A DNA stretch of 64,000 nt from a virus. Where the stretch lies: the IMG/VR virus record IMGVR_UViG_3300045988_119033; one strand, given 5' to 3'. The position numbers and the translations under genes are program-made. Within the stretch, counting starts at the first letter, position 1; the number at the start of each line of letters is the position of its first letter. Positions 4,934 to 47,599 of the stretch are shown piece after piece. The notes beneath the pieces were generated by a model. The model saw only the letters and a program-made list of their open reading frames with translations. It was not told the DNA's origin and searched no databases.

Positions 4934-5827
4934 ATGAGAAGAAGGTTTGAGGCATATAAACAACAACCAAAATTGGTGAAATTAATGGGTAATCTAGGGG
5001 TAGATCAGAATTATACGATAGAAAAAGGATATCGTTATTTTGATTTACTTGTAGTTGGAGGTGGCGGCGGAGGTGGCACAAACAGTGGTGGCGGTGGAGC
5101 TTCTGGAACAATAGCATTTGCTCGTAATATAAAAATCTCTTTGCTACCGAAAACTTTGACTTGTAAAATTGCAAAGCCTGTAAATGCACAAACTGATGGG
5201 GATAGTACAACTCTTGAAATAAACGGGGATACGATAATCTGTGCTGGAGGGCAAAGAGGTAATAGTGAGGGAGCAGGAGGGCTTGGTAATGGCTCTAAAA
5301 TACCAGACAGTATATATACCATTCTATCAAAGTTGGTAGAAAACCCATCTTCCGATATCGCGATTTGTAATAATGGTGGAGGCTCTCCTGGTTATTGGAA
5401 TGGTTCTTACGGTTATGCTGGTGGTTCAGGCGCATCTATGTCGGGTAATGGAAATTCATCGTCAGGAATGACCGGTGGAAACAGTGTAAGTAATGCAGAT
5501 GGTATGGGCGGTTATAAAGGTGGAAATAGTCAATCTTATCAAGGTGGTACAGGATATAAATATAACAATGTACTTATTCCTATTGGCCTATTTGGAGGAG
5601 GTGGAACTTCGGGGAAAGGCTCGAACGGATCTGGTTCGGATGGATCTGGAGCAGGTGGTGGGGCGGCAGGTCTTGAATCAGGTGGAAATGGTGGAAATTC
5701 AGGGTCAAGCAATCCTACGAATGGCGGAAATGGTGGCATTGGAGCTGGTGGCGGAGGAGGTGGTGGTCTGTCACGTAAAGGAGGAAAAGGAGGACAGGGT
5801 ATAATTTGTTTATATTATCATAATTGA
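4934..5827 (+). CDS. Glycine-rich collagen-like fibre protein with N-terminal MRRRFE motif
   Basis: Poly-Gly/GGxGG runs throughout. The start codon sits 1 nt after the upstream stop. The N-terminus MRRRFE is shared with the ORF at 42978 and is near-identical to the ORF at 25412. Antisense Pro-rich ORFs here are mirror artefacts. Confidence 0.5.
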   Translation: MRRRFEAYKQQPKLVKLMGNLGVDQNYTIEKGYRYFDLLVVGGGGGGGTNSGGGGASGTIAFARNIKISLLPKTLTCKIAKPVNAQTDGDSTTLEINGDTIICAGGQRGNSEGAGGLGNGSKIPDSIYTILSKLVENPSSDIAICNNGGGSPGYWNGSYGYAGGSGASMSGNGNSSSGMTGGNSVSNADGMGGYKGGNSQSYQGGTGYKYNNVLIPIGLFGGGGTSGKGSNGSGSDGSGAGGGAAGLESGGNGGNSGSSNPTNGGNGGIGAGGGGGGGLSRKGGKGGQGIICLYYHN

Positions 5828-5863
5828 TTTATTTATTCAAATTAATGTATTTTTAAATATTTT

Positions 5864-5896
5864 AATTTGATAATTAGATTTTAGTCTTTATATTTG
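5864..5896 (+). promoter_or_regulatory. Candidate Bacteroidetes-type promoter (-33 TTTG / -7 TATATTTG) driving the tRNA-like array
   Basis: TTTG at 5864-5867 and TATATTTG at 5889-5896, about 21 nt apart. This matches the Bacteroidetes sigma-A consensus TTTG-N19-21-TAnnTTTG. Confidence 0.4.
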
Positions 5897-5927
5897 CATC
5901 GTAATCAAGAGAGATTATGATATAAGA

Positions 5928-6017
5928 CAGTGGTGATGGAAGGTGATACTTCGGTTTGTGTCATAGGTTCGAGTCCTATATTTTTCATGCAAGAAAAATT
6001 AGATCAGTTGGTAGATC
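5928..6017 (+). ncRNA. tRNA-like element with permuted-looking order: T-arm plus 3' acceptor-like strand, then 5' acceptor-like strand plus D-arm
   Basis: T-arm ATAGG-TTCGAGT-CCTAT at 5963-5979, followed by ATTTTTC at 5980-5986. After a 6-nt spacer, GAAAAAT at 5993-5999 is its exact complement, then TA, then D-arm GATC-AGTTGGTA-GATC at 6002-6017. No anticodon arm found. Confidence 0.3.
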
Positions 6018-6099
6018 AAAACTTCCTTTCATATCAAAACACATTCCAGGTTTTCCCTGTTTTAATAAAATATACAGATGGTGAGGAGTTCGGTTACTT

Positions 6100-6172
6100 C
6101 GAAAATTAGCATAGTGGATAATGCGGTATTCTGTAAAAATACTTTTCATTGGTTCGAATCCAATATTTTCAT
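6100..6172 (+). tRNA. tRNA, anticodon GUA (Tyr-type), class I cloverleaf with a C1:A72 mismatch
   Basis: Hand-folded. Acceptor CGAAAAT/ATTTTCA (6 of 7 pairs); D-stem GCAT/ATGC with loop AGTGGATA; anticodon stem GTATT/AATAC with loop CTGTAAA; 5-nt variable loop; T-arm ATTGG-TTCGAAT-CCAAT; discriminator T. Confidence 0.55.
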
Positions 6173-6247
6173 TTTAATCATCCGGCTCCGTTTTTCCTCT
6201 GTTTGAAATATATAAAAACTAATGAGTGGTGATGGGGTTAGTTACTT

Positions 6248-6320
6248 CGAATTTAGCTCAGATGGATAGAGCGATACTCTTTTAAAGTATAGGTCAATGG
6301 TTCAAATCCATTATTTCATT
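6248..6320 (+). ncRNA. tRNA-like element (anticodon-loop UUU, Lys-type) with a degenerate acceptor stem; possible Y-RNA-like module
   Basis: D-arm GCTC-AGATGGATA-GAGC; anticodon stem ATACT/AGTAT with loop CTTTTAA; T-arm AATGG-TTCAAAT-CCATT. The acceptor strands do not pair (at best 4 of 7). A possible closing helix joins AATGAG(T)GG at 6221-6229 with CCCTCATT at 6343-6350. Confidence 0.4.
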
Positions 6321-6434: not shown

Positions 6435-8069
6435 ATGGGAAAGTTTAACAAAAAGGATGAAGGTGTTAAACCTACGATCGTGAATCACATGGGAGAGAAG
6501 GCGTATAAGCCTAACGCAGAAGAAGAGTTGGTATCTACGGTAATGACTACCATGTTATCTGATTCTTATTATGAGAAAGAAAAAGATAAAGTAGAAAGAA
6601 TTAAGAGCCTTATGGATCAAATAGATCCGTATTTCGCAGCACAAACAGCATTGTATGTCAGGAAAGAAGGAAAGCTTAGGTCAGTAACGCATCTTATGGC
6701 TTCTGTCCTTGCCAGCAAAGCATCGGGTAAGGAATGGGCTTCAAGGTTCTATAACAAGATCGTTATGCGTCCTGATGATATGAGCGAAATCCTTGGCTGT
6801 TATGCGGCTCTTAACGACAAAAATCCAAAGAAGTTAAGAGGAATATCCAGCGCTATTAAGAAAGGATTTAAGACGGCTTTGGAAGGTCTTGATCCGTATC
6901 GGATTGATAAGTATAAGATGGACAGTAGGGTCATTACTATGGTTGACTTAGTAAACTTATTTCACCCTAAAGGCAATCAGGCTAACAAAACGGCTTTCCA
7001 GTACCTTATAGAAGGTAGGTCTTTGTCTGGATTATACGAAAGCAAGATTCTTGAAAAAGAAATGTCTAAAGCCGGACAGGATAAGAAAGATAATAAGGAA
7101 AAGAAAGAAGCTTTAGGTGACGCTATTCGGGACGTGGTTTCTAATGTAAAAGGTATGCCTATTTTTAATATGGTTCGTAACCTTGTAAACATAATCAAAT
7201 ACGCACCTGATCAAATAGATGAAGTTTGTAGGCAGCTTACAATAGAAGAGAAGGTGCTTAATTCGAAGATGCTTCCTTTCCGTTTTGCTTCAGCTTTCAA
7301 AGAGGTTGAAAATATGGGCACTGATGGTTCCGATAACGATATTGTATTTGAGTCGGATAAAAAACGAGCTAAATTAACAGCGCGTAATAAATATAAGATT
7401 TTAGATGCGTTGGAGAAAGCCATAACCATCTCCTGCAAGAACTTGCCGGTATTGGAGGGGCGGTCGGCTATCCTGATTGACCACTCTGGCTCTGTACGTG
7501 GAGATATGGGAGGATCTTCTGAAGTGTCTGCCTTTAGCAAAACAAATACGGCTGTCATTGGTAACTTGTTTGGCTGTATGATTGCTTCTGTGCTTCCTGA
7601 CGTATTTATTGGTATGTTTGGTGACAAACTTATCAATTACGAATATGATAGAAGCAGAGGTGTTTTATGGAACAACAAAAAATCTTTTACTGCCGGAGGA
7701 GAATGCGGTGGTGCTACTGAAAACGGTCTTTTTGCATTCTTGGAAAAGTGCATCAAAGATAAGATAAAAGTAGATAACTTGTACGTTATTTCAGATATGC
7801 AGATAGGAGATGGCGAATCTATTGTATGGGAAAAAAGTTCCAATTATGAATATGGTAAATTCGCTGAACTTTTGAAAAAGTTCAAGAAAGTGAATCCAAA
7901 TTGCAAAATCGTTTCTATTTCTATTCAAGGATATGGAAGTGAGATGTTTTACAGAGGATCTAATATCTTGAACATAGCTGGCTGGTCAGAATCTATCTTC
8001 GATGTTATTAACAGCAAGTTCTGCGGATATAAGAATATGATTGAGGAAATTAAGAAAATAAAAATATAA
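6435..8069 (+). CDS. rsr: Ro60/Rsr orthologue (TROVE domain plus C-terminal vWA domain with a DxSGS MIDAS motif)
   Basis: 544 aa, the size of Ro60. The N-terminal TROVE-like stretch (SDSYYEKEK ... FAAQTALYVRKEG) aligns by eye to Ro60. The C-terminal vWA region carries ILIDHSGSV (DxSGS), AGGECG and LYVISDMQ in the order of the Ro60 vWA domain. Confidence 0.7.
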   Translation: MGKFNKKDEGVKPTIVNHMGEKAYKPNAEEELVSTVMTTMLSDSYYEKEKDKVERIKSLMDQIDPYFAAQTALYVRKEGKLRSVTHLMASVLASKASGKEWASRFYNKIVMRPDDMSEILGCYAALNDKNPKKLRGISSAIKKGFKTALEGLDPYRIDKYKMDSRVITMVDLVNLFHPKGNQANKTAFQYLIEGRSLSGLYESKILEKEMSKAGQDKKDNKEKKEALGDAIRDVVSNVKGMPIFNMVRNLVNIIKYAPDQIDEVCRQLTIEEKVLNSKMLPFRFASAFKEVENMGTDGSDNDIVFESDKKRAKLTARNKYKILDALEKAITISCKNLPVLEGRSAILIDHSGSVRGDMGGSSEVSAFSKTNTAVIGNLFGCMIASVLPDVFIGMFGDKLINYEYDRSRGVLWNNKKSFTAGGECGGATENGLFAFLEKCIKDKIKVDNLYVISDMQIGDGESIVWEKSSNYEYGKFAELLKKFKKVNPNCKIVSISIQGYGSEMFYRGSNILNIAGWSESIFDVINSKFCGYKNMIEEIKKIKI

Positions 8070-8128
8070 TCATTGATTTTGCTTCAAATGTAATTTCCAT
8101 AGTAAAAAAGTTTTAGCTTTAAAGGTAT

Positions 8129-8167
8129 AGCCGAAGAAGTACGTGAGTATATCTTCGGCTTTTTTTA
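8129..8167 (+). terminator. Rho-independent terminator after rsr
   Basis: Stem AGCCGAAGA/TCTTCGGCT with a 14-nt loop, followed by a T7 run. Confidence 0.7.
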
Positions 8168-8169
8168 TT

Positions 8170-8177
8170 TACCTTTG
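8170..8177 (+). promoter_or_regulatory. Bacteroidetes-type -7 box TACCTTTG
   Basis: TAnnTTTG motif 18 nt upstream of the ATG at 8195. Confidence 0.4.
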
Positions 8178-8194
8178 TTAAAAAACAGTTTGTT

Positions 8195-8608
8195 ATGAAA
8201 CAAGTATTATATAAAAATGATATATACCCCTATAATGTAAGGGTATTGCTTGGAGCAGATGAAGAGTATATAGTTAAGACGTTCGCCAACCTGGAAGTAG
8301 AAGATCAGAGCTGGGAGGGGTGGACTGATGATTATGGTGGCAGAACTATTTTCGTAGGAAACCGAACCAATCACAGGAAAGAAATATGTTTCTTATTTCA
8401 TTCGCTGTCTGATATGGATGTTAGAACCATAGGACACGAATGCCTGCACGGTCTTTCTATTTATTGTAAGTATCTTAATATGGATTACGGTTTTGAAGTC
8501 GGAGGAGATGAGCATGCCGCCTGTCTGATGGGATGGTTAGTTGATAAGGTTTGTGGTGCTTACCACAAATTTAAGAAGGAGGAAGAAAAAAATGGCAAAG
8601 AAGACTAA
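8195..8608 (+). CDS. Small HExxH zinc-metallopeptidase-like protein (137 aa)
   Basis: The only recognisable feature is GHECLHG (HExxH). Its own promoter and terminator context lies between rsr and the tail lysin gene. Confidence 0.4.
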   Translation: MKQVLYKNDIYPYNVRVLLGADEEYIVKTFANLEVEDQSWEGWTDDYGGRTIFVGNRTNHRKEICFLFHSLSDMDVRTIGHECLHGLSIYCKYLNMDYGFEVGGDEHAACLMGWLVDKVCGAYHKFKKEEEKNGKED

Positions 8609-10994
8609 AAATTATGTAAGAGACAAACAACCAAAAACATTATGGAGTAAAATTGGTCCGTTTGTAAAACTTAGAGAATATCTGGCATCTAATATAACAC
8701 CTGACGTGTATGCTAATGAAAGAGGATTAAAAACCAAAATAATGGAATTTTTTGGTCAAGATGTTCCGAAAGCCAATGTAGATGATTTTAGTCAGAATCT
8801 TTGGTTTAGATTCTTAAACCAACCAAATAATCTGAAAGAAGAAAATGGGATTGTCAGAATACCAGACAATATCAAATCCATTATATCTGACAGGATAAAT
8901 GGTGGGTGGGAGAAAATGGCTAAAAAATATGGAAGGGAGCTTGATTCCTTAGATAATAAGATAATTGATGGAAAAGTTGCAGGCAAGGACGTATCTGATT
9001 TGGAGGAGTTAAGGGATGTAACAAGTAGGAAACTTGGAATGGTAGAAGAGGGTATAGATCTCTTAAAAAAAGCCAGAACCGGGGAACATCAGGTATTTAA
9101 CGAATATAATTTTATACCGGATGCTTACGGAGATTTAAATGATTTATCAGGCTTATCAAGTTTTACCATGTACCGTGATGATAGAGGTAGGATGGTTGTG
9201 AAAGATAAGTACGATTTTTATAGAAGCGATCAACCTTTTGGTGTTGGGGTTGTTACTAAGACTCTTGATACAATAGGATATCCTTTTGAAATAAGGGATT
9301 ATGTAGAAGATAAAATCCCATACGAAGAGAATGATCCAAACAAGATCCTGTTTAGATCCATTATTGATTCAAAGAATGATTTGGATAAAAGGATGGAGAT
9401 AAGATCCAAAAAACAAGGAGGGGATTCTTCTAAGCCGGAAATAGATTGGGATTTATTCAAATCCAAATATGAAAATATGAAGCGTGTGGGTAAGGGTAAG
9501 CATCGTACTATGGACGTAGAAGGGATGAATATGATCTATGATGCTTTATATGATAAAGGTTTTAATCAACGCCAGATAGAAGCCGTACTTGGAAATATTA
9601 TTGAAGAATCTGGTGGAAACCCCTACGCTGTATCTGAGGATGGAAAATTTAGGGGACTTTTTCAAGAATATTACAAAAGATATCCGCCAAAAGAGTTTGA
9701 AAGAGATAAAGAGAGATTTAAGAGCGATAAGCGTGGATATATCAACTATATGATAGACAGATTTTATGATCATGTTCAAGATGCTGGGAAGTATAGTATA
9801 AAAGATACTAAATACAAAAAAGCTATTCATGCAGTAAACGAATTTATGTCAGAAGATCCAGATACGGATTATTCGTATCCACTTGTATATGCTTTTGAAG
9901 CTCCATCAGATAAAGAAGGAACTTATAAAAACAGAAAGAGCGTATCAAATTTGATAAGTCAATCTTATGTTTTGGATAATGTTGATAAAAATGATAATAC
10001 TATTGTTGATGCTATTCTTGGAATAAAAAATGATCTTGAGCTACAAGACTCTATTTCCACTACAAGAGGTGAAGCCTTTAAAGAAGCCAGGAAAAGAGGT
10101 CTTAAGGAATTTACATGGAATGGAAAGAGATACAATACCAACATCAAGAAGGAAGGTGGCGTAGTTGGCAAGCAGCGTGAAGCATATGAATACTTTACTA
10201 ATAAGCGCGGCATGTCCAAGATACAGGCGCTCGCCATCATAGGTAACCTCATGGCTGAATCTGGCCTTAAAGATGACATATACGGAGACAACAGAACATC
10301 ATACGGCATACAGCAATGGCACAACGAACGCATGGATAAGCTATTCAAGCACGCCAAAAAGAAAGGACATTCTACACCCACATTCAAAGACCAACTTGAG
10401 TTCTTGGCTGACGAATACGAAGGGAAAACCGGATATTCTAATTTCTTATACACAAGAAAAGGAAAAGAAGGACCAGGGTATTACAACTACAGCCGGCAGG
10501 ATTTTATGAACGCCGATAACCTTAAGGATGCTGTAGTAGCTTGGAACCAAGGAGCAGGACGTCCTCATAAGAGTGTTATAAGAAATGATGATCGTTATGA
10601 CTATGCTATGGAAGTTGCTAAAAATCTTGGTTTGGAAATTGAAGAAAATTCCGTATCTTTGTATGGTCAAATGGGATTCGGAGATGATGGAGAAATAGCA
10701 GCATCGGTAACACTTCCAGAGGTAGAAGTGGCAGCCGCCCTCCCTAACCCGGAAGCCCAGTCCCAGGAGAGACAGTCCGAGGAAGAGAGATTCCGTACAT
10801 GGACTGAAACGTATGGTAAAGACATCGTAAATCATTTACTGACGTTAGACGGGAAAAAGGATGGTGATGACAGTGATTACAGCATGATGTATAGACAGCA
10901 TCAAAAAGAAAGCGAAGAGGATAAGAAAATGGCTTTGATTAATGCCGTGCTTCCCAATATACAACTTCGCATTAAAGGCGTCACTGATAATTAG
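8592..10994 (+). CDS. Tail-associated peptidoglycan hydrolase with two phage-tail-lysozyme-like domains
   Basis: Two copies of the GNxxxESG motif: LGNIIEESGGNPY, and IGNLMAESG followed by YGIQQW. The start is revised to the ATG at 8592, which is preceded by the SD-like AAGGAGG at 8576-8582. The track start at 8541 overlaps the previous gene. Confidence 0.6.
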   Translation: MAKKTKNYVRDKQPKTLWSKIGPFVKLREYLASNITPDVYANERGLKTKIMEFFGQDVPKANVDDFSQNLWFRFLNQPNNLKEENGIVRIPDNIKSIISDRINGGWEKMAKKYGRELDSLDNKIIDGKVAGKDVSDLEELRDVTSRKLGMVEEGIDLLKKARTGEHQVFNEYNFIPDAYGDLNDLSGLSSFTMYRDDRGRMVVKDKYDFYRSDQPFGVGVVTKTLDTIGYPFEIRDYVEDKIPYEENDPNKILFRSIIDSKNDLDKRMEIRSKKQGGDSSKPEIDWDLFKSKYENMKRVGKGKHRTMDVEGMNMIYDALYDKGFNQRQIEAVLGNIIEESGGNPYAVSEDGKFRGLFQEYYKRYPPKEFERDKERFKSDKRGYINYMIDRFYDHVQDAGKYSIKDTKYKKAIHAVNEFMSEDPDTDYSYPLVYAFEAPSDKEGTYKNRKSVSNLISQSYVLDNVDKNDNTIVDAILGIKNDLELQDSISTTRGEAFKEARKRGLKEFTWNGKRYNTNIKKEGGVVGKQREAYEYFTNKRGMSKIQALAIIGNLMAESGLKDDIYGDNRTSYGIQQWHNERMDKLFKHAKKKGHSTPTFKDQLEFLADEYEGKTGYSNFLYTRKGKEGPGYYNYSRQDFMNADNLKDAVVAWNQGAGRPHKSVIRNDDRYDYAMEVAKNLGLEIEENSVSLYGQMGFGDDGEIAASVTLPEVEVAAALPNPEAQSQERQSEEERFRTWTETYGKDIVNHLLTLDGKKDGDDSDYSMMYRQHQKESEEDKKMALINAVLPNIQLRIKGVTDN

Positions 10995-11030
10995 AACAAG
11001 ATTGTTTTATTTCTCATATTAATAAAGCGA

Positions 11031-11101
11031 AGCCGGATTTGAGACTCGTTATGCGTATAACGAAGGTTGAAGAACGATATCAAGATAATCCGGCTTTTTT
11101 G
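11031..11101 (+). terminator. Rho-independent terminator with a large structured loop, after the lysin gene
   Basis: AAGCCGGATT at 11031-11040 pairs with AATCCGGCTT at 11088-11097, followed by TTTTT. The loop contains an internal hairpin CGTTAT-GCGT-ATAACG. Confidence 0.55.
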
Positions 11102-11255
11102 TGCGATTTAGTGAAGGATGGAACTATCATCGCCTTGGTTGGACGGAACAGACCTACGTACTTTCACTGTCCTGACGGGCATGGGCGCTCGTCTCGCCTA
11201 CTCCCTGCCTAATTCTCCACTGGCTACCTAATATAACTATTAACGTCACTCCATC

Positions 11256-11280
11256 ACCTATCTCCCTTCAGTCGATAGGT
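11256..11280 (+). repeat. Hairpin 1 of a three-member family with conserved loop TCCCTTCRGTC (C-UUCR-G core) and a variable stem
   Basis: Stem ACCTATC/GATAGGT with loop TCCCTTCAGTC. Confidence 0.5.
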
Positions 11281-11313
11281 TCAGTCGTTTTTAAATATTA
11301 TAAGTTCTTTCGC

Positions 11314-11334
11314 ATCGTTCCCTTCGGTCACGAT
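11314..11334 (+). repeat. Hairpin 2 of the same family
   Basis: Stem ATCGT/ACGAT with loop TCCCTTCGGTC (C-UUCG-G tetraloop core). Confidence 0.5.
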
Positions 11335-11405
11335 ACTCAATCTTTTCACACAATTAGGCAAACAATACAATAGACGGAAAAAGTAATTTGTCAATCCGTT
11401 CACTC

Positions 11406-11430
11406 ACTTAACTCCCTTCGGTCGTTAAGT
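11406..11430 (+). repeat. Hairpin 3 of the same family
   Basis: Stem ACTTAAC/GTTAAGT with loop TCCCTTCGGTC. Confidence 0.5.
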
Positions 11431-11653
11431 TCATTCACTGCAAACAATTATATGAATAAATGGTAAAGTATATAAAATAATATAAATAATATAATGAGTA
11501 AGATCATTGAAAATGGTCTTAATATTAAGGAAAACGGAGACTATTAATAGGCGTAGTTTTAATTCAAGATTTGATGTCCCACCTCTGACGGTCAGTCGGT
11601 TACGTTTCGAGCCGTTCTTTTGTCTCTTATCTAAACCGTCATAAAATAAAAAA

Positions 11654-11688
11654 CCTTGTATCCTATTTCTCTCAAACCGGATACAAGG
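11654..11688 (+). other. 10-bp hairpin CCTTGTATCC/GGATACAAGG (15-nt loop) followed by a T-rich tract; possible terminator at the end of the 660-bp intergenic region
   Basis: Perfect 10-bp inverted repeat. It overlaps the first codons of track ORF 11656, which argues for the downstream ATG as the true start. Confidence 0.4.
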
Positions 11689-11712
11689 CCGTGCATTTTC
11701 TTATTTGAACAT

Positions 11713-12771
11713 ATGATGAAAAATCATATCTTTGCACTAAAGAACATAATTATGGAGACAAAGTTAATCGAAATAATAGATCCTCACAAGTTACACGACG
11801 AACTCTTTAAGAAAGAGCAAGTCTCTCCGATAGAAGTTATTTACAATAGTTTCAGTAATTTAGGGTACAATGTGGTACGCCGCCCAGCTGGTCAATGTTT
11901 AGGAAATTTGAGATATTTTAACCTGTTTTACGATAAGAATACTCATCATTTTTATCAGAAGGATAAGAAGTTGAGATATTGTAGTAATTTTCTGATATCC
12001 GATTATTGGAAAGATAGGGTGAGGTGTTTTATAGTTTGGAATTTTGGTTTTGGGAGATTCTTCCCGTACAATGACTTCATAGAGGCTATGGTCTATGACT
12101 ATCTCCGATATGGGAGGAAGTCAGTTCCTTATCTTAAGAGTGTGCAAGAAGCTGAAGAAAAGTGTGTAAGGTTCTACATTAGATCTCAAATAGATATGCT
12201 TCGTAAGGAAGGATATGCTGCATACCGGGCTAAGTTCAAGGAAGAATGTCCTCAGTATTTTATCGGAGACGATAGGACGGTGTTCAGATGTCTTGACAGC
12301 TCTTTAAAAAGAGAAGAGAAGATTGCCGCATGCGTAGCTCACAAAAGAGCTTTAAAAGAGGTGGTTATAACTTCTTTTATTAACCATCTCAAGAAACATC
12401 CTACCACCTTGTATTCCTGGTTTTCATCAGAGGTAGACAGCGAAGGGAAGAACAGGCTTTGTTTATCTGATAAGGCTGTTTCTTATTTAAACAAAAGATT
12501 GGTTCGCAATGGGTTAAAGGTTCTTTCAGCATCATATCTTTTTAGACTATTTAGGAAAATGGTCAAGAATTTGTTTGGCTCCAATGTTAGGTCGTTCTTG
12601 AATAGCTGTCTGATGTCTGTTTCAACAGAAGAGGTTTTAACCAAATCTATGAAGAAAATAGTTTCCAAGACGGTGCTGTTTTTGTACAAGAGAGTGCTTA
12701 AGAACTATCGTATGGCATGCGGTCTTAAGTACGACCCTGATTCGGGTGGTTTGTCTGCCGTACATGATTGA
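11713..12771 (+). CDS. Hypothetical protein (353 aa from the revised start)
   Basis: Long ORF. The start is moved to the in-frame ATG at 11713 because the annotated start lies inside a stable hairpin. No recognisable domain. Confidence 0.5.
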   Translation: MMKNHIFALKNIIMETKLIEIIDPHKLHDELFKKEQVSPIEVIYNSFSNLGYNVVRRPAGQCLGNLRYFNLFYDKNTHHFYQKDKKLRYCSNFLISDYWKDRVRCFIVWNFGFGRFFPYNDFIEAMVYDYLRYGRKSVPYLKSVQEAEEKCVRFYIRSQIDMLRKEGYAAYRAKFKEECPQYFIGDDRTVFRCLDSSLKREEKIAACVAHKRALKEVVITSFINHLKKHPTTLYSWFSSEVDSEGKNRLCLSDKAVSYLNKRLVRNGLKVLSASYLFRLFRKMVKNLFGSNVRSFLNSCLMSVSTEEVLTKSMKKIVSKTVLFLYKRVLKNYRMACGLKYDPDSGGLSAVHD

Positions 12772-43989: not shown

Positions 43990-44020
43990 AACTCTAATTT
44001 TTAAAAGTGAATAATTAATT
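43990..44020 (-). promoter_or_regulatory. Conserved upstream element (plus-strand sequence TAAT TTTTAAAAGTGAATAATTAATT), copy 1
   Basis: Identical over about 24 nt to 44650-44680. It ends 6 to 7 nt before the ATG of a small minus-strand gene. Confidence 0.45.
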
Positions 44021-44311
44021 AAGGTTGCCAAAAGAAAGGAAAATAAGTTCTTTAATACAAGCTTTTGGTATGGTCATTATACCAGAAGCTTGTTCTAATG
44101 TATTGGAATTACCAACAGCATAATGACCAGCTACAGATATAGATCTTTCATTTTCATGTACAACAATACCATAGCTCTCTATTTCTGATATATCTGTTTC
44201 GTAATCCTCCAGATCTACCCATGTTCTTTCTGATAGGTTGGAATCTATCCACTTAACTAATACCCGCTTGTTTAAAAGCGATTCTTTTCTTTTATTTCTA
44301 CTCTTTTTCAT
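44015..44311 (-). CDS. Hypothetical protein (98 aa)
   Basis: ORF. Its stop lies inside conserved element copy 1. Confidence 0.4.
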   Translation of the reverse strand: MKKSRNKRKESLLNKRVLVKWIDSNLSERTWVDLEDYETDISEIESYGIVVHENERSISVAGHYAVGNSNTLEQASGIMTIPKACIKELIFLSFGNLN

Positions 44312-44344
44312 AACTTGTTATATTGATTTTTTAGTAAACGAAAA

Positions 44345-44374
44345 GAGATTGTGCCAGCATTTTGACACAATCTC
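44345..44374 (-). terminator. Hairpin GAGATTGTG/CACAATCTC, followed on the minus strand by a T-rich run
   Basis: 9-bp stem with a 12-nt loop. TTTTCGTTT follows in the minus sense. Confidence 0.45.
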
Positions 44375-44493
44375 AATTATATGAGAATAATACTAAGAAA
44401 AGGTGTAAAGTGGTATATAATTACCATTTAGAATAAATGAGATTTTAAACATCCCTAACGCTTATCCTTCTCAAAACATTTCATTGGATATCG

Positions 44494-44649
44494 CTATGAT
44501 GTTGCTTTCTTTGCGATTAGATCATTGATAGAATCAAGCAGTTTTCGGTCGTGAGGAGAATCGTAATTTTTAAGTTTTTCCTTACAAATTTCTCTCATTT
44601 TGATAAGACGATTCAATTCTTGTTGTCCATTTTCTTTTGATGTTTTCAT
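44494..44649 (-). CDS. Small hypothetical protein (51 aa), not in the supplied ORF track
   Basis: Manual translation of the minus strand: MKTSKENGQQELNRLIKMREICKEKLKNYDSPHDRKLLDSINDLIAKKATS. Preceded by conserved element copy 2. Confidence 0.35.
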   Translation of the reverse strand: MKTSKENGQQELNRLIKMREICKEKLKNYDSPHDRKLLDSINDLIAKKATS

Positions 44650-44680
44650 AATTGTAACTTTTAAAAGTGAATAATTAATT
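44650..44680 (-). promoter_or_regulatory. Conserved upstream element, copy 2
   Basis: AATTGTAACTTTTAAAAGTGAATAATTAATT, to be compared with copy 1. Confidence 0.45.
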
Positions 44681-44683
44681 GAT

Positions 44684-45163
44684 TTATAAAAAATGTACCC
44701 TATCCGTAAAAACTAAACCAACGCCATTCATAATATATCCTACTACAGGAGCTTTGTCAAATTCCTCCTTCGTAGCCCAAGTAGCATTATCAGGCATCAG
44801 ATCCTTAAATGCATCCGAAACATCACCCTGACACCAGCAATTGTTTGATGCAACAATACCCTTCCCTTCGATATTGACATACATTTTTCTTCCACCGCAT
44901 CCAAGGCTATTCCATCCTCTTGGTACGTTTTCTACCATAGGCTTAAGCACCCAGCTTTCACCGTCTATCCTAATCCATCCAGGATCGTCTTTGTGCTTGT
45001 CGTACATATTTTGCCAAAAAGAGCATTCGTAGCACCATCCCTTGTCTTCCATGATAGTTCTTATCTCACACCTTTCAAATCCATCTGCATCCATCGTGTG
45101 CGGAGAATGAGGCTGGTGAGGGGTGCCACATTTTGGGCATACGAGTTTTAAATTCTTTTCCAT
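44684..45163 (-). CDS. Cys/Trp-rich hypothetical protein (159 aa)
   Basis: ORF with multiple CxxC pairs (CPKCG, CYEC, CWCQ). Confidence 0.45.
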   Translation of the reverse strand: MEKNLKLVCPKCGTPHQPHSPHTMDADGFERCEIRTIMEDKGWCYECSFWQNMYDKHKDDPGWIRIDGESWVLKPMVENVPRGWNSLGCGGRKMYVNIEGKGIVASNNCWCQGDVSDAFKDLMPDNATWATKEEFDKAPVVGYIMNGVGLVFTDRVHFL

Positions 45164-45175
45164 ATTATTTCACTT

Positions 45176-46520
45176 TTACGATCTTTAACAAATCCCCTGC
45201 TTTTAAGCAGGGGATCAATGATTCTTTTATTCATATATGTATTTTTAAATAATTGATTCTGATATATGCCAAAAAGTTATTATTATATTTGTATCATAAA
45301 TGTGGTTAAAAATGATTTCATACAAATATAACATATATTATTCAAAGAAAACGAAGTATCTTGTCAAGATACTTCGCGAATGCTGTTTTGTATGGAATCA
45401 TGCTTTAGCTCTACAACGTAGGTATTACAAACTGTTTGGGAAATATATCTCAGTTGGCAAGATGCAAAAACATTTCTCTAAAAGAATTAAGAGAAATCTT
45501 CTTCATTCCCAAACAACACAAGAAATTATTCAAAGGTTAGATTCAGCATACAATCGCTTCTTCAAGAAGTTGGCTAAACGACCTCCTAAGTTTAAATCAC
45601 CGGAGAAATTCAATTCTTTTGTATTCAAACAAGGAGGGTTTACCCTGAATGGAAATTGTCTAACAATTAACAAAGGAAAGAAACATTTTAAGTTTTCATA
45701 CAGTAGACCTTATGAAGGTAATGTTAAACAAATTAGAATAGTTAGAGAAACCTGTTCCCGTTTTAGTTTGATTATAGTTACAGACCATAATCCTGTAAAC
45801 TCTTATAGAAAGACACATGATGGTGCATCTATCGGATTGGATTTTGGTCTGAAAACTTATCTAACTAAAAGTGATGGTAGCAAAATCGATTCTCCATTAT
45901 TCCTCAAACAATATCAAAACAAGATTAGAAAACTAAACAAACGGTTTTCTAATGCAAAGAAAGGATCCAATAATAAAAGAAGGAGACTGTTTGAACTACA
46001 ACAAGCGTATCGTAAAATAAACAATCTTCGATCAGACTTTCAATGGAAATTAGCTCATGATTTGTGTAAACAATATGATTATATTTTTATTGAAGATCTA
46101 AACATTGAAGGAATGAAACGTTTGTGGGGAAAGAAAGTTTCTGATCTCAGTCATTCTTCTTTTATTGACAAACTTACATATATTGCTTCAAAGTATGGAG
46201 TGATAGTACATAAGATTGACAAATGGTATCCTTCTTCCAAAACTTGTGAATGTGGCTGCATTAATAAAGGACTGTCGTTACGCGACCGCACGTGGGTATG
46301 CCCGTCGTGCGGCGCGGTCAACGACCGTGATGTTCTTGCATCCCGTAATATACTTCGGAAGGGCATTTCCGAATTGGAGAGTAAGAGTAATTCCAACGAT
46401 AGTAATGTCGGGGTTTCTTGCGTTTGTATCCAAGAATCCCATTTGCTTTAGCGATGGGAGTATGTCAAGATCTTAATAGAATCTCCGATATTGTATTCCC
46501 CTTGGTATCCAACGAATTTT
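45176..46520 (+). mobile_element. Putative IS200/IS605-family element carrying tnpB only (IS1341-like); boundaries approximate
   Basis: TTAC at 45176-45179 followed 12 nt later by the subterminal hairpin ATCCCCTGC-TTTTAA-GCAGGGGAT (45192-45215). The 3' 100 nt of tnpB is GC-rich and hairpin-forming. No tnpA in the window. Confidence 0.45.
45300..46451 (+). CDS. tnpB: TnpB (IS200/IS605 OrfB-family RNA-guided endonuclease)
   Basis: The N-terminus YKYNIYYSKKTKYLVKILRECCFVWNHALALQRRYYKLFGKYIS matches the TnpB consensus. The C-terminus has a RuvC-like IFIEDLNIEG and a CxxC...CxxC zinc finger, CECGCINKG...WVCPSCGAVNDRDVLASRNI. Confidence 0.85.
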   Translation: MWLKMISYKYNIYYSKKTKYLVKILRECCFVWNHALALQRRYYKLFGKYISVGKMQKHFSKRIKRNLLHSQTTQEIIQRLDSAYNRFFKKLAKRPPKFKSPEKFNSFVFKQGGFTLNGNCLTINKGKKHFKFSYSRPYEGNVKQIRIVRETCSRFSLIIVTDHNPVNSYRKTHDGASIGLDFGLKTYLTKSDGSKIDSPLFLKQYQNKIRKLNKRFSNAKKGSNNKRRRLFELQQAYRKINNLRSDFQWKLAHDLCKQYDYIFIEDLNIEGMKRLWGKKVSDLSHSSFIDKLTYIASKYGVIVHKIDKWYPSSKTCECGCINKGLSLRDRTWVCPSCGAVNDRDVLASRNILRKGISELESKSNSNDSNVGVSCVCIQESHLL

Positions 46521-46687
46521 ATAAATCTATTACTGTTAAATATTGAAAATCTTCCGTCTTCACCATAATACATTATACATCCACCATCTAAAGGACGTAG
46601 ATCATATATAACCCATCCGTCATTAACCCGAATATCATGCGAACATGATGATAACACAAGTGCCATCAATAAAACAAAATACCTCAT
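46448..46687 (-). CDS. Small lipoprotein (79 aa; signal peptide with lipobox LSSC)
   Basis: MRYFVLLMALVLSSCSHD. Convergent with tnpB, overlapping its stop by 4 nt. Confidence 0.5.
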   Translation of the reverse strand: MRYFVLLMALVLSSCSHDIRVNDGWVIYDLRPLDGGCIMYYGEDGRFSIFNSNRFIKFVGYQGEYNIGDSIKILTYSHR

Positions 46688-46694
46688 ATTATTT

Positions 46695-46886
46695 TCAGCA
46701 TAAAAATTTGTAACCTGGTTTTACGGCCTCTGCTTCTTCTCTCGTATCAAACATTAAGGTAGTGACAGCTCCTATGCCTTCACAAACGTAAGATACTTTC
46801 ACCCACCACCTAAAAATCCCAGAGCCGTAATCATCATAGTACGGCTCAGAAAGAACCTCTTCTACGTACCCATCTAAGTAATTCAT
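46695..46886 (-). CDS. Small hypothetical protein (63 aa)
   Basis: ORF in the minus operon. Confidence 0.35.
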   Translation of the reverse strand: MNYLDGYVEEVLSEPYYDDYGSGIFRWWVKVSYVCEGIGAVTTLMFDTREEAEAVKPGYKFLC

Positions 46887-47599
46887 GATCGTTCCTCCTT
46901 GTTTTTAGGTTCTGCCTCTTCGAGTATGCTGATCACCTTGTCAACAATATCCGAATCAGACATTTTCTCAATAAAAACATCCATTGCCTTAGTTATGTCA
47001 TTGGCTTCTTTTTCTTCAAGAGCTATTTCTCCACCGGTAATAGCATCAGATAATAATGTAGATAAGTGTCTTATCTTATCAATGCTCATAAACGTAAATG
47101 GATTACCACCCAAGCCTCCACCCATTTCTTTCATGATCTGATATCCACCTGAGATAAGTCTGCCTGATGTCGTGGCCAAGGAGGATACGATTAGGGACAG
47201 TACCGCCGCTTCCGTCCGCTCCTCGGACACACCCCTCGACCACACGGCTGCCCTTATAGCGCCGGCCAGATCGTCTATGTATGGCATGAGGCAATCTTCC
47301 ATCGCTTGTGTTATATCAGCTATAACCTCACTACGCTCTTTATTTATGTAGTAGATAGAAGCATTGTACCTCTTTATCTCTTTGTCCATATCATTTAAAA
47401 GACGCTTGATATTGTGCTTATACATAGGACTGGTTTTAATTACTTCCTTTAGCTTAAGAATGTAATTATAAGCCTGGTCGTTTACGAACAACGTCATGGT
47501 CTCAACCGTTGAATGAAGTGTGTTAAGACTGTTAAGAATCTTATCGAAATTGTTTATCAAATAAGCTCTTCTGGCTTTTGCTGCGTAGTTAATCATCAC
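46883..47599 (-). CDS. Hypothetical protein (238 aa)
   Basis: ORF; no domain recognised. Confidence 0.5.
   Translation of the reverse strand: MMINYAAKARRAYLINNFDKILNSLNTLHSTVETMTLFVNDQAYNYILKLKEVIKTSPMYKHNIKRLLNDMDKEIKRYNASIYYINKERSEVIADITQAMEDCLMPYIDDLAGAIRAAVWSRGVSEERTEAAVLSLIVSSLATTSGRLISGGYQIMKEMGGGLGGNPFTFMSIDKIRHLSTLLSDAITGGEIALEEKEANDITKAMDVFIEKMSDSDIVDKVISILEEAEPKNKEERS

What the first reader, a model, noticed from the sequence alone, without database searches (positions are those of the whole stretch)
10995..11712. 660-bp non-coding region carrying three covarying hairpins with an invariant UCCCUUCGGUC loop; candidate structured sRNA(s)
Between the lysin terminator (11031-11101) and the next gene lie three hairpins at 11256-11280, 11314-11334 and 11406-11430. 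Their stems differ completely: ACCTATC/GATAGGT, ATCGT/ACGAT and ACTTAAC/GTTAAGT. Their 11-nt loops are identical except one base (TCCCTTCRGTC, containing a C-UUCG-G tetraloop). Conserved loops with covarying stems indicate selection on RNA or ssDNA structure, not on a duplex protein site. The region ends with a 10-bp hairpin at 11654-11688 and also contains the perfect palindrome CTGACGGTCAG at 11585-11595.
Basis: seen in the sequence. Interest (0 to 1): 0.6.

Follow-up and report, generated by a model that had tools for sequence, protein, structure and literature searches.

The report
Bottom-strand hairpin array in crAss-like phage
The three hairpins are real and under selection, but they fold on the opposite strand from the one proposed, inside a conserved 650-base non-coding module of unknown function that travels with one uncharacterised gene in Epsilon crAss-like gut phages.

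Summary
In detail: all coordinates and sequences are right. A structure-aware scan finds exactly three such hairpins in the 64-kb window (0.03 expected). It also finds only three in the complete 151-kb genome of the closest relative, crAssE-Sib. Every non-Watson-Crick stem position is C.A on the + strand and G.U on the - strand. The "11-nt loop" is a continued helix on the - strand: tandem G.A pairs, two C-G pairs and a GNA triloop. A distant lineage has a GNRA tetraloop instead. The C(UUCG)G reading is refuted by natural variants. The hairpins lie in a module conserved in five lineages, always directly upstream of a family of basic proteins (339 aa here) with no known domain. The cassette occurs once or twice per genome. 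The 10-bp end hairpin is a - strand, GNRA-capped intrinsic terminator. It is fed by a conserved - strand host-type promoter that faces the gene's own promoter, which implies an antisense sRNA of about 110 nt. Best reading (about 0.4): a - strand non-coding RNA unit whose hairpins bind a protein. Main rival (about 0.27): template-strand DNA mini-hairpins that act as N4-like promoter or priming signals. Nothing matches in Rfam or in the paper describing this phage.

The parts
8541..10994 (+). Tail lysozyme gene; left neighbour of the module in lineages W, B and D.
   Evidence: Pfam Phage_lysozyme2, E = 6e-31. Annotated as tail lysozyme in OR575929. Same synteny in L121 and L168.
11030..11102 (+). 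Lysin terminator: 10-bp arms AAGCCGGATT/AATCCGGCTT around a 47-nt insert, then a T6 run. It closes the module on the left.
   Evidence: repeat I8. Present in B. Not conserved in C or D.
11167..11227 (-). Conserved block A, G-rich on the - strand. The + strand reads CTGTCCTG..CTCGCCTAC..CCTGCC..CCACTGGCTAC.
   Evidence: Conserved in W, B and C, and recognisable in D. The + strand purine fraction here is 0.34-0.36.
11254..11282 (-). Hairpin 1. The - strand reads GA ACCTATC GA CT GAA GG GA GATAGGT GA: basal G.A pairs, 7-bp stem, tandem G.A, a U.G and a C-G pair, and a GAA triloop.
11310..11338 (-). Hairpin 2. The - strand reads GA GTATCGT GA CC GAA GG GA ACGATGC GA: a 7-bp stem with one U.G pair.
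   Evidence: The stem covaries across lineages: W ATCGT, B ATATC, C ATATCG.
11404..11432 (-). Hairpin 3. The - strand reads GA ACTTAAC GA CC GAA GG GA GTTAAGT GA.
   Evidence: Three independent natural variants all give G.U on the - strand.
11440..11535 (.). AT-rich stretch (GC 0.16-0.30) with ATGAATAA-type repeats; A-rich on the + strand.
   Evidence: Low diversity among 69 close relatives.
11563..11595 (.). Conserved block TTCAAGAT..GTCCCACC followed by the palindrome CTGA-N3-TCAG. The arms are conserved and the centre varies.
   Evidence: It lacks covariation, so it looks like a duplex site. It is not conserved in D.
11641..11688 (-). Intrinsic terminator on the - strand: a 10-bp stem, an inner UUU/AAA helix, a GNRA-type cap (GAGAG here; GCGA, GAGA or GUGA elsewhere), then U6AUUUUAU (11653 down to 11641).
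   Evidence: The stem covaries in five lineages while the 'loop' is conserved. Non-Watson-Crick positions are C.A on the + strand, 14 against 1.
11727..11734 (+). Bacteroidota-type -7 promoter box TATCTTTG for the 339-aa gene.
   Evidence: A perfect TAnnTTTG is present in all lineages examined.
11759..11766 (-). Facing - strand -7 box. The + strand reads CAAAGTTA, which is TAACTTTG on the - strand.
   Evidence: Perfect in W, crAssE-Sib, C, D and E; one mismatch in B and C2. Its position relative to the ATG varies, but it always lies 65-77 nt from the terminator.
11645..11754 (-). Inferred antisense sRNA of about 110 nt, running from the - strand promoter to the terminator. The ends are inferred, not mapped.
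11752..12771 (+). Gene for a basic 339-aa protein of unknown function; the constant partner of the module.

Best explanation
The region is the non-coding half of a two-part cassette: a module of about 650 nt plus the gene for a 339-aa basic protein. Its functional strand is the bottom (-) strand.

Shown: the three hairpins and the end hairpin are selected as - strand single-strand structures. Each array hairpin is a continuous irregular helix: G.A/A.G, 7 bp, G.A/A.G, C-G, C-G, then a GNA triloop. The end hairpin is a GNRA-capped stem followed by a U tract.

Inferred: a host-type promoter on the - strand, face to face with the gene's own promoter, fires leftward. The end hairpin terminates most transcripts, giving an antisense sRNA of about 110 nt that can interfere with expression of the 339-aa gene. 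RNA that reads through the terminator carries the U-rich spacer, the three hairpins and the G-rich block. In that RNA the near-identical caps act as repeated docking sites for one protein, most simply the cassette's own protein. In the most distant lineage both caps have changed together to another stable cap, which fits recognition by a co-evolving partner.
For: - Strand: 13 unique hairpin variants give 107 Watson-Crick, 8 G.U and 2 mismatched pairs on the - strand, against 107, 0 and 10 on the + strand.
- Pairing: the - strand model pairs 98.1% of cells, 6 of 9 pairs covary, and 0 of 500 shuffles reach the score.
- Energy: RNA folding gives -10.9, -11.8 and -10.8 kcal/mol on the - strand versus -7.3, -5.0 and -6.8 on the + strand.
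- Cap pairs: positions 3 and 9 change C-G to G-C in type C hairpin 1, and the A/G loop variant is a U.G wobble on the - strand.
- Lineage D (42% protein identity) has GA-C-GUGA-G-GA caps in both of its units.
- The seemingly poor stems ACCTCAC/GATTCGGT become helices with tandem G.A pairs on the - strand, and in W those positions are Watson-Crick pairs.
- End hairpin: the stem covaries in five lineages, it has a GNRA cap and a U tract on the - strand, and C.A versus G.U on the + strand is 14:1.
- A facing TAnnTTTG box lies 65-77 nt upstream of the terminator in five lineages, whatever its position relative to the ATG.
- The module always precedes the gene, including at a second genomic site and as a presence/absence cassette.
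- The array and the AT-rich part vary less than the flanking coding sequence in 69 relatives.
- phi14:2, another crAss-like phage, makes abundant long non-coding RNAs from long intergenic regions (bioRxiv 10.1101/2020.03.07.982082).
Against: - No expression data exist for this region.
- The array lies downstream of an apparently good terminator, and no second - strand host-type promoter precedes it. Its transcription therefore needs read-through or an unknown promoter.
- In W the module is bracketed by two terminators that point inward, which fits an insulated DNA element equally well.
- A GNA triloop closed by C-G is the hallmark of DNA mini-hairpins (PMC13037366).
- No - strand terminator is conserved at the left end in C or D.
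- Binding by the 339-aa protein is pure inference. Its model is poor (pLDDT 58) and the fold hits are weak.
- The cap is a generic stable cap found in many unrelated repeats, so its conservation need not mean specific recognition.
Confidence: 0.4

Rival explanations
1. Template-strand DNA mini-hairpins act as initiation signals. The - strand hairpins extrude or persist in single-stranded DNA, and the phage's virion RNA polymerase or a primase starts an RNA chain just to their right. That chain runs into the AT-rich stretch and the 339-aa gene. This is the logic of N4 vRNAP promoters, of RSF1010 ssiA and the G4 origin, or of the T7 primary origin (tandem phage promoters plus an AT-rich region).
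For: - The caps CCGAAGG, CCGGAGG, CCGTAGG and GCGAAGC, and CGTGAG in lineage D, fit the DNA mini-hairpin rule GCGNAGC/GCGNNAGC. CCGAAGG is the heptamer in ssiA. N4 promoters use GCGGAGC with GGA or GAA loops on 5-7-bp stems, in a set of three (PMC13037366; PMC4496689).
- The structured strand is the template strand for the downstream gene.
- A conserved TCAnTCAC motif sits at a fixed distance to the right of each stem.
- An AT-rich stretch is adjacent.
- The array is unique in the genome.
- No host promoter can transcribe the array, and in W inward-pointing terminators insulate it.
- The crAss virion RNAP works on denatured DNA, and its promoters are unknown.
Against: - Fixed G.T mismatches and units with two tandem G.A pairs plus a bulge would extrude poorly from duplex DNA. 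DNA folding parameters give them about 0 kcal/mol.
- The locus lies mid-genome, inside the late and structural gene block, not near a terminus or the early genes.
- No GC-skew switch occurs here, and the replication genes are more than 35 kb away.
- phi14:2 early transcripts share no motif, and its early region has no such hairpins.
- The gene already has a host-type promoter.
- The phage's RNAP is unrelated to that of N4 (PMC11054128).
Confidence: 0.27
2. A duplex-DNA control region or origin bound by the cassette's protein. The repeated units act as iteron-like sites, the AT-rich stretch as an unwinding element, and the cassette as a self-contained replication or partition module.
For: - The layout is repeated units, then an AT-rich stretch, then the gene for a basic protein with weak winged-helix and ORC/Cdc6-like fold hits.
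- The palindrome CTGA-N3-TCAG has conserved arms.
- The cassette is duplicated and shows presence/absence.
- There is a DnaA-box-like TTATCCACT in type C.
Against: - The stem arms differ completely between units yet stay complementary, and mismatches are strand-asymmetric. Duplex recognition cannot explain either point.
- The DnaA-like box is not conserved in W, B or D.
- GC skew gives no support.
- The fold evidence is weak.
Confidence: 0.13
3. One reading: + strand RNA hairpins with an 11-nt UCCCUUCGGUC loop containing a C(UUCG)G tetraloop, made as sRNAs or as a leader of the downstream gene.
For: - The orientation matches all neighbouring genes.
- The loop variants UACG and UCCG still fit the UNCG family.
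- The + strand hairpins also beat shuffles for hairpins 1 and 3.
Against: - All 10 non-Watson-Crick stem cells are mismatches on the + strand, and none is a G.U pair.
- TCGCTTCGCTC destroys the tetraloop's closing pair, UUCA in hairpin 1 removes its essential G, and lineage D has UCAC.
- Folding energies are lower on the - strand.
- No + strand promoter lies between the lysin terminator and 11727.
Confidence: 0.07

Closest known systems
Bacteriophage N4 virion-RNAP hairpin promoters (P1-P3)
   Same: Three tandem hairpins on the template strand. They have 5-7-bp stems with variable but complementary bases, and a GNA triloop closed by C-G with a sheared G:A pair. The phage ejects its own RNAP, which is active on single-stranded DNA (PMC4496689, PMC13037366).
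   Different: The polymerase is unrelated: here it is a two-barrel enzyme like phi14:2 gp66 (PMC11054128). The locus is mid-genome rather than at the leading end. Extra tandem G.A pairs, G.T wobbles and bulged units are present. Initiation has not been shown.
Single-strand initiation signals (RSF1010 ssiA, phage G4 origin hairpin I)
   Same: A hairpin capped by the same CCGAAGG mini-hairpin, with function tied to one strand (PMC13037366).
   Different: There is no cognate RepB'-type primase, no opposite-strand partner and no skew or origin evidence. There are three copies on one strand.
Cis-antisense sRNAs from face-to-face promoters with an intrinsic terminator (plasmid countertranscripts; the P2/186-type convergent promoter switch; from general knowledge)
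   Same: A facing promoter overlaps the 5' end of a regulatory gene, and a short transcript ends at a stable capped hairpin with a U tract.
   Different: The overlap with the mRNA is only about 10 nt. The sRNA is mostly antisense to promoter DNA. No target or phenotype is known.
Long non-coding early RNAs of the crAss-like phage phi14:2
   Same: Long intergenic regions flank a small gene in a crAss-like phage and are transcribed abundantly, with unknown function.
   Different: Those RNAs run in the gene direction. No sequence or hairpin similarity was found.
Multi-hairpin protein-sponge RNAs (the CsrB/RsmZ type)
   Same: Repeated hairpins present one conserved purine-rich apical motif on variable stems.
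   Different: This is a resemblance of logic only. One unit lacks GGA, and as far as I know Bacteroidota have no CsrA. No binding partner has been identified.

Membership tests
Any Rfam family | A covariance-model match | tested here: not met
   No credible match in 10500-12300 at E <= 10: 9 sub-threshold chance-level hits, all far below gathering score. Only two tRNAs in the whole window at gathering score.
   Type C hairpin 1 TCGCTTCGCTC gives C.C. W hairpin 1 has UUCA. Lineage D has UCAC.
N4-type vRNAP hairpin promoter | A template-strand hairpin with a 5-7-bp stem whose bases may vary if pairing is kept | tested here: met
   7-bp stems on the strand that templates the downstream gene; 6 of 9 pairs covary.
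N4-type vRNAP hairpin promoter | A 3-nt GNA loop closed by C-G (a mini-hairpin) | tested here: met
   GAA, GGA or GTA closed by CC/GG or GC/GC; the rule comes from PMC13037366.
N4-type vRNAP hairpin promoter | A T7-like giant vRNAP encoded by the phage | not tested
   PMC11054128 reports a phi14:2 gp66-like RNAP by HHpred. My phmmer searches of the two largest ORFs against PDB found nothing.
N4-type vRNAP hairpin promoter | Located upstream of early genes at the genome end that enters first | tested here: not met
   The locus is at 77.7-78.4 kb of 151.3 kb, with the start set by PhageTerm, inside the structural gene block.
N4-type vRNAP hairpin promoter | Transcription starts about 11 nt from the loop centre and is rifampicin-resistant | not testable with these tools
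   This needs 5'-end mapping or in vitro transcription.
ssi / primase-dependent origin | A strand-specific hairpin with a mini-hairpin cap | tested here: met
   CCGAAGG, as in ssiA.
ssi / primase-dependent origin | An origin context: skew switch, replication genes nearby, a partner signal on the other strand | tested here: not met
   Skew switches at 44-46 kb, not at 11 kb. Replication genes start at about 47 kb on the other strand. All units lie on one strand.
Iteron-type origin | Identical direct repeats bound as duplex DNA, plus an AT-rich element and DnaA boxes | tested here: inconclusive
   The AT-rich stretch is present. The repeats share only the cap and short flanks. The DnaA-like box occurs only in type C.
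Intrinsic (rho-independent) terminator, for the end hairpin on the - strand | A stable stem followed directly by a U tract, downstream of a promoter on the same strand | tested here: met
   A 9-10-bp covarying stem with a GNRA cap. U6-7 in W, B, C and E, weaker in D. A TAnnTTTG box lies 65-77 nt upstream.
Bacterial Y RNA (partner of the Ro60-like protein at 6435-8069) | A Y RNA/YrlA-like fold and linkage to the rsr gene | tested here: not met
   No Rfam match. The module occurs without a TROVE gene nearby in L121, L123-127 and L168.
Protein-coding gene | A conserved reading frame | tested here: not met
   Only ORFs of 30-57 aa are present. 1-nt indels separate the window from crAssE-Sib and from lineage B.

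The most novel reading that the evidence does not exclude
The array is a set of single-stranded-DNA hairpin promoters or priming sites, built on GNA mini-hairpins, for the ejected two-barrel virion RNA polymerase of an Epsilon crAss-like phage. It would be a convergent re-invention of the N4 strategy by an unrelated enzyme, possibly aided by the adjacent 339-aa protein as a specificity factor. It would also give the first promoter for a crAss-family virion RNAP.
Probability: 0.2. Interest if true: 0.85.

Novelty: new variant of a known kind. Interest (0 to 1): 0.6.

Why it matters
Epsilon crAss-like phages are abundant in the human gut. The neighbouring protein's cluster alone holds 5,145 sequences. 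How crAss-like virion polymerases find their start sites, and what their long non-coding regions do, are open questions.

This module is one of the best-constrained non-coding elements in the genome. It has a precise, testable structure on a defined strand, a linked orphan protein, and a likely antisense RNA switch. It gives concrete oligonucleotides and coordinates for experiments. These experiments could reveal either a new phage ribonucleoprotein or an N4-like hairpin promoter system in an unrelated polymerase family.

The case also shows that "conserved loop plus covarying stem" can mislead about both the strand and the loop.

Tried and rejected
- **Y RNA for the nearby Ro60-like gene:** no Rfam match and no linkage in other lineages.
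- **Coding potential:** rejected because of frameshifting indels.
- **Hammerhead or other ribozyme cores, by eye:** CUGANGA and GAAA are not in register, and Rfam found nothing.
- **HUH Rep/relaxase reading of the 339-aa protein:** the 'HAH' is VAH in the window, only one His is invariant, and the motif lies in a predicted helix.
- **Origin of replication by GC skew:** no support.
- **DnaA box:** not conserved.
- **Similarity to the phi14:2 non-coding regions:** none.
- **More distant modules:** searches of IMG/VR and JGI metagenomes with P0017 and P0018 found nothing. Only L168 and L169 were reached, through exact-protein look-ups.
- **A second - strand host promoter ahead of the array:** none found.
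- **Sigma-70-type scan:** it gave - strand hits at 11476-11447 and 11394-11367, but the region is AT-rich and the host is Bacteroidota.
- **CsrA-sponge and anti-Shine-Dalgarno ideas:** dropped, because one unit lacks GGA and the host biology does not fit.
- **Long-range helices proposed by RNAalifold:** they showed no compensatory change.

Full report
**Identity of the window.** The window is 92.6% identical over this locus to phage crAssE-Sib (OR575929, 151,256 bp, human gut), an Epsilon crAss-like phage. The gene order is as follows:
- muzzle protein;
- tRNA-Tyr and tRNA-Lys (6100-6320);
- a Ro60/TROVE protein (6435-8069);
- a small ORF;
- the tail lysozyme (8541-10994);
- the gap under study;
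- a 339-aa ORF (11752-12771);
- large virion proteins.

The paper describing crAssE-Sib (PMC11054128) does not mention this region.

**Observation.** The gap is 757 bp (10995-11751) and non-coding. Only 30-57-aa ORFs occur, and single-base indels separate the window from crAssE-Sib and from lineage B. A scan for the complete capped hairpin finds three in the window against 0.03 in shuffles. It finds the same three and no others in the entire crAssE-Sib genome.

**The element is a conserved module tied to one gene.** Homologues of the 339-aa protein lead to four further lineages, set out below with the window's own.

| Lineage | Protein identity to the window | Locus | Context |
|---|---|---|---|
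| W | the window itself (close relatives about 96%) | window, about 100 IMG/VR contigs | after the lysozyme gene |
| B | 82% | L121 | same lysozyme context |
| C | about 62% | L123-L127 | inserted between a DUF6808 gene and tail-fibre genes |
| D | 42% | L168 | same lysozyme context |
| E | about 20-28% | L169 | different context |

In all of them a long non-coding stretch directly precedes the gene. In W, B, C and D this stretch contains the same ordered blocks:
1. a block that is G-rich on the - strand;
2. two or three hairpin units;
3. an AT-rich stretch with ATGAATAA-type repeats;
4. TTGTCCCACC followed by CTGA-N3-TCAG;
5. an A run followed by a hairpin;
6. a TAnnTTTG promoter box.

Many genomes carry both a W or B copy and a C copy. 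crAssE-Sib lacks the C copy and has only 84 bp at that site. The roughly 1.8-kb cassette is therefore duplicated and polymorphic. Among 69 distinct close relatives, the array, the AT-rich part and the end hairpin vary less than the flanking coding sequence.

**Strand and structure of the array.** Across 138 modules, every stem position that is not Watson-Crick is C.A on the + strand, which is G.U on the - strand. In 13 unique variants the - strand has 107 Watson-Crick, 8 G.U and 2 mismatched pairs. The + strand has 107, 0 and 10.

Read on the - strand, each unit is GA | 7 bp | GA | CC | GNA | GG | GA | 7 bp | GA. Several observations support this model:
- The two inner C-G pairs are supported by a C-G to G-C double change in type C hairpin 1 (GAGCGAAGCGA).
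- The A/G "loop" polymorphism is a U.G wobble at one of these pairs.
- Only the middle base of the triloop varies (A, G or U).
- Lineage D replaces the cap in both of its units with GA-C-GUGA-G-GA, which has a GNRA tetraloop.
- The apparently poor stems ACCTCAC/GATTCGGT of B, C and D become ACC-GA-A(U)C...G-U-GA-GGU on the - strand. In W hairpin 1 the G.A positions are ordinary Watson-Crick pairs.
- Hairpin 2 covaries between lineages (ATCGT, ATATC, ATATCG), and one further pair beyond the basal G.A covaries U-A to C-G.

The named structure pairs 98.1% of cells. Six of nine pairs change on both sides, and no shuffle or slid register comes close. RNA folding energies favour the - strand by 3.6-6.8 kcal/mol. 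DNA parameters favour it only slightly and do not fold the irregular units. The C(UUCG)G reading fails on three natural variants.

**The cap is generic.** Scans for two nearby copies of the 11-mer also hit unrelated repeats in giant-virus MAGs, bacteria and archaea, including arrays with a 63-nt period that look like CRISPR arrays. In 45% of the bacterial and archaeal loci from the genome-contig scan, the 11-mer is flanked by at least 3 complementary bases, against roughly 5% expected (my estimate). The motif is therefore a widely reused stable hairpin cap. This weakens any argument from sequence identity with a particular known element.

**The end hairpin and a facing promoter.** The stem of the 10-bp hairpin differs in all five lineages but stays paired, while its "loop" is conserved. 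On the - strand that loop is a UUU/AAA helix capped by GCGA, GAGA or GUGA (GAGAG in W). Its non-Watson-Crick positions are again C.A on the + strand, 14 against 1. The A run that precedes it is a U tract following it on the - strand. It is therefore a - strand intrinsic terminator.

Some 65-77 nt to its right lies a TAnnTTTG box on the - strand. The box is perfect in W, crAssE-Sib, C, D and E, and one base off in B and C2. It faces the gene's own box, and its position relative to the start codon varies, so coding constraint does not explain it. This implies an antisense RNA of about 110 nt, roughly 11754 to 11645. No other host-type promoter occurs in the module on either strand.

**Function.** Three readings remain.
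- *(a) A - strand non-coding RNA.* The hairpins are repeated protein-docking sites, reached by read-through of the terminator. I favour this reading at about 0.4. All four structures are selected on the strand that demonstrably carries an RNA-level signal. G.U pairs, tandem G.A pairs, a bulge and GNRA caps are typical of RNA. The caps changed in concert in lineage D.
- *(b) Template-strand DNA mini-hairpins* acting as promoter or priming signals (about 0.27). The caps obey the GCGNAGC/GCGNNAGC rule, CCGAAGG occurs in RSF1010 ssiA, and N4 uses three such promoters. The strand is the template for the downstream gene, an AT-rich stretch follows, and in W host transcription is shut out from both sides. 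crAss virion RNAP works on single-stranded DNA and has no known promoter. Against this reading are the mid-genome location, the imperfect and irregular stems, the lack of any skew signal, and the absence of such hairpins in phi14:2.
- *(c) Duplex binding sites or an origin* (about 0.13). This cannot explain the complementary but unconserved arms.

The original + strand model is unlikely (about 0.07).

**Verdict.** This is a real, strongly constrained and undescribed non-coding module. Function remains open between an RNA and a single-stranded-DNA initiation signal. One strand-specific transcript map would decide between them.

Noticed in passing
window 6435-8069 (with tRNAs at 6100-6172 and 6247-6320): The phage encodes a Ro60/TROVE-domain protein (Pfam E = 2.6e-14; PHROG 'RNA-binding protein') just downstream of tRNA-Tyr and tRNA-Lys. 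No Y RNA was detected by Rfam. The gaps at 5827-6100 and 8069-8195 were not examined for a partner RNA.
   Followed up: partly
L010, L049, L050, L069, L089 (IMG/VR GVMAG-S-1101165-105): A giant-virus MAG carries dozens of copies of ctacGAGC[TCCCTTCGGTC]GCTCtccgcaatataaaa. This is the same cap on a 4-bp stem, on both strands, possibly a transcription-end or mobile repeat.
   Followed up: no
L187, L209, L212, L235, L199 and others from genome contigs: Unrelated bacterial and archaeal repeats use the same 11-mer as a hairpin cap, for example ATTCC[..]GGAATgacaac with a strict 63-nt period, which looks like a CRISPR array. There are also 9-11-bp stems in Methanothrix and Haloarcula. The motif appears to be a generic, very stable cap.
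   Followed up: partly
L071:5516-5741, L090, L158: The number of hairpin units varies among close relatives. Hairpin 1 is duplicated in L071 (four units) and hairpin 3 in L090. L158 has a partial internal duplication of type C hairpin 2.
   Followed up: no
window 11030-11102: The lysin terminator is unusual. Its 10-bp stem encloses a 47-nt insert that has its own small hairpin (CGTTAT/ATAACG). Lineage B has an equivalent, while C and D do not.
   Followed up: no
L293 41184-41720 versus L124 5240-7130: The second (type C) cassette sits exactly between the stop codon of a DUF6808 gene and the promoter of a tail-fibre-cluster gene. It is absent from crAssE-Sib. No terminal repeats or target duplication were seen.
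   Followed up: partly
L168:7650-7659 and 7570-7579 (- strand): The lineage D cap ACGUGAGGA is, from memory, 8 of 9 identical to the sarcin-ricin loop core ACGAGAGGA of 23S rRNA. This is a recalled resemblance only and was not tested.
   Followed up: no
L001 1-739; L123 30-1169; L169 3094-4786: TnpB (OrfB_IS605) genes lie within a few kb of the cassette in several lineages, and in L169 a resolvase gene accompanies one. No link to cassette mobility was established.
   Followed up: no
window 44000-47000: Gene orientation and GC skew both switch here. The cumulative skew maximum lies at about 44 kb, at the convergent junction between the long structural block and the replication block.
   Followed up: no
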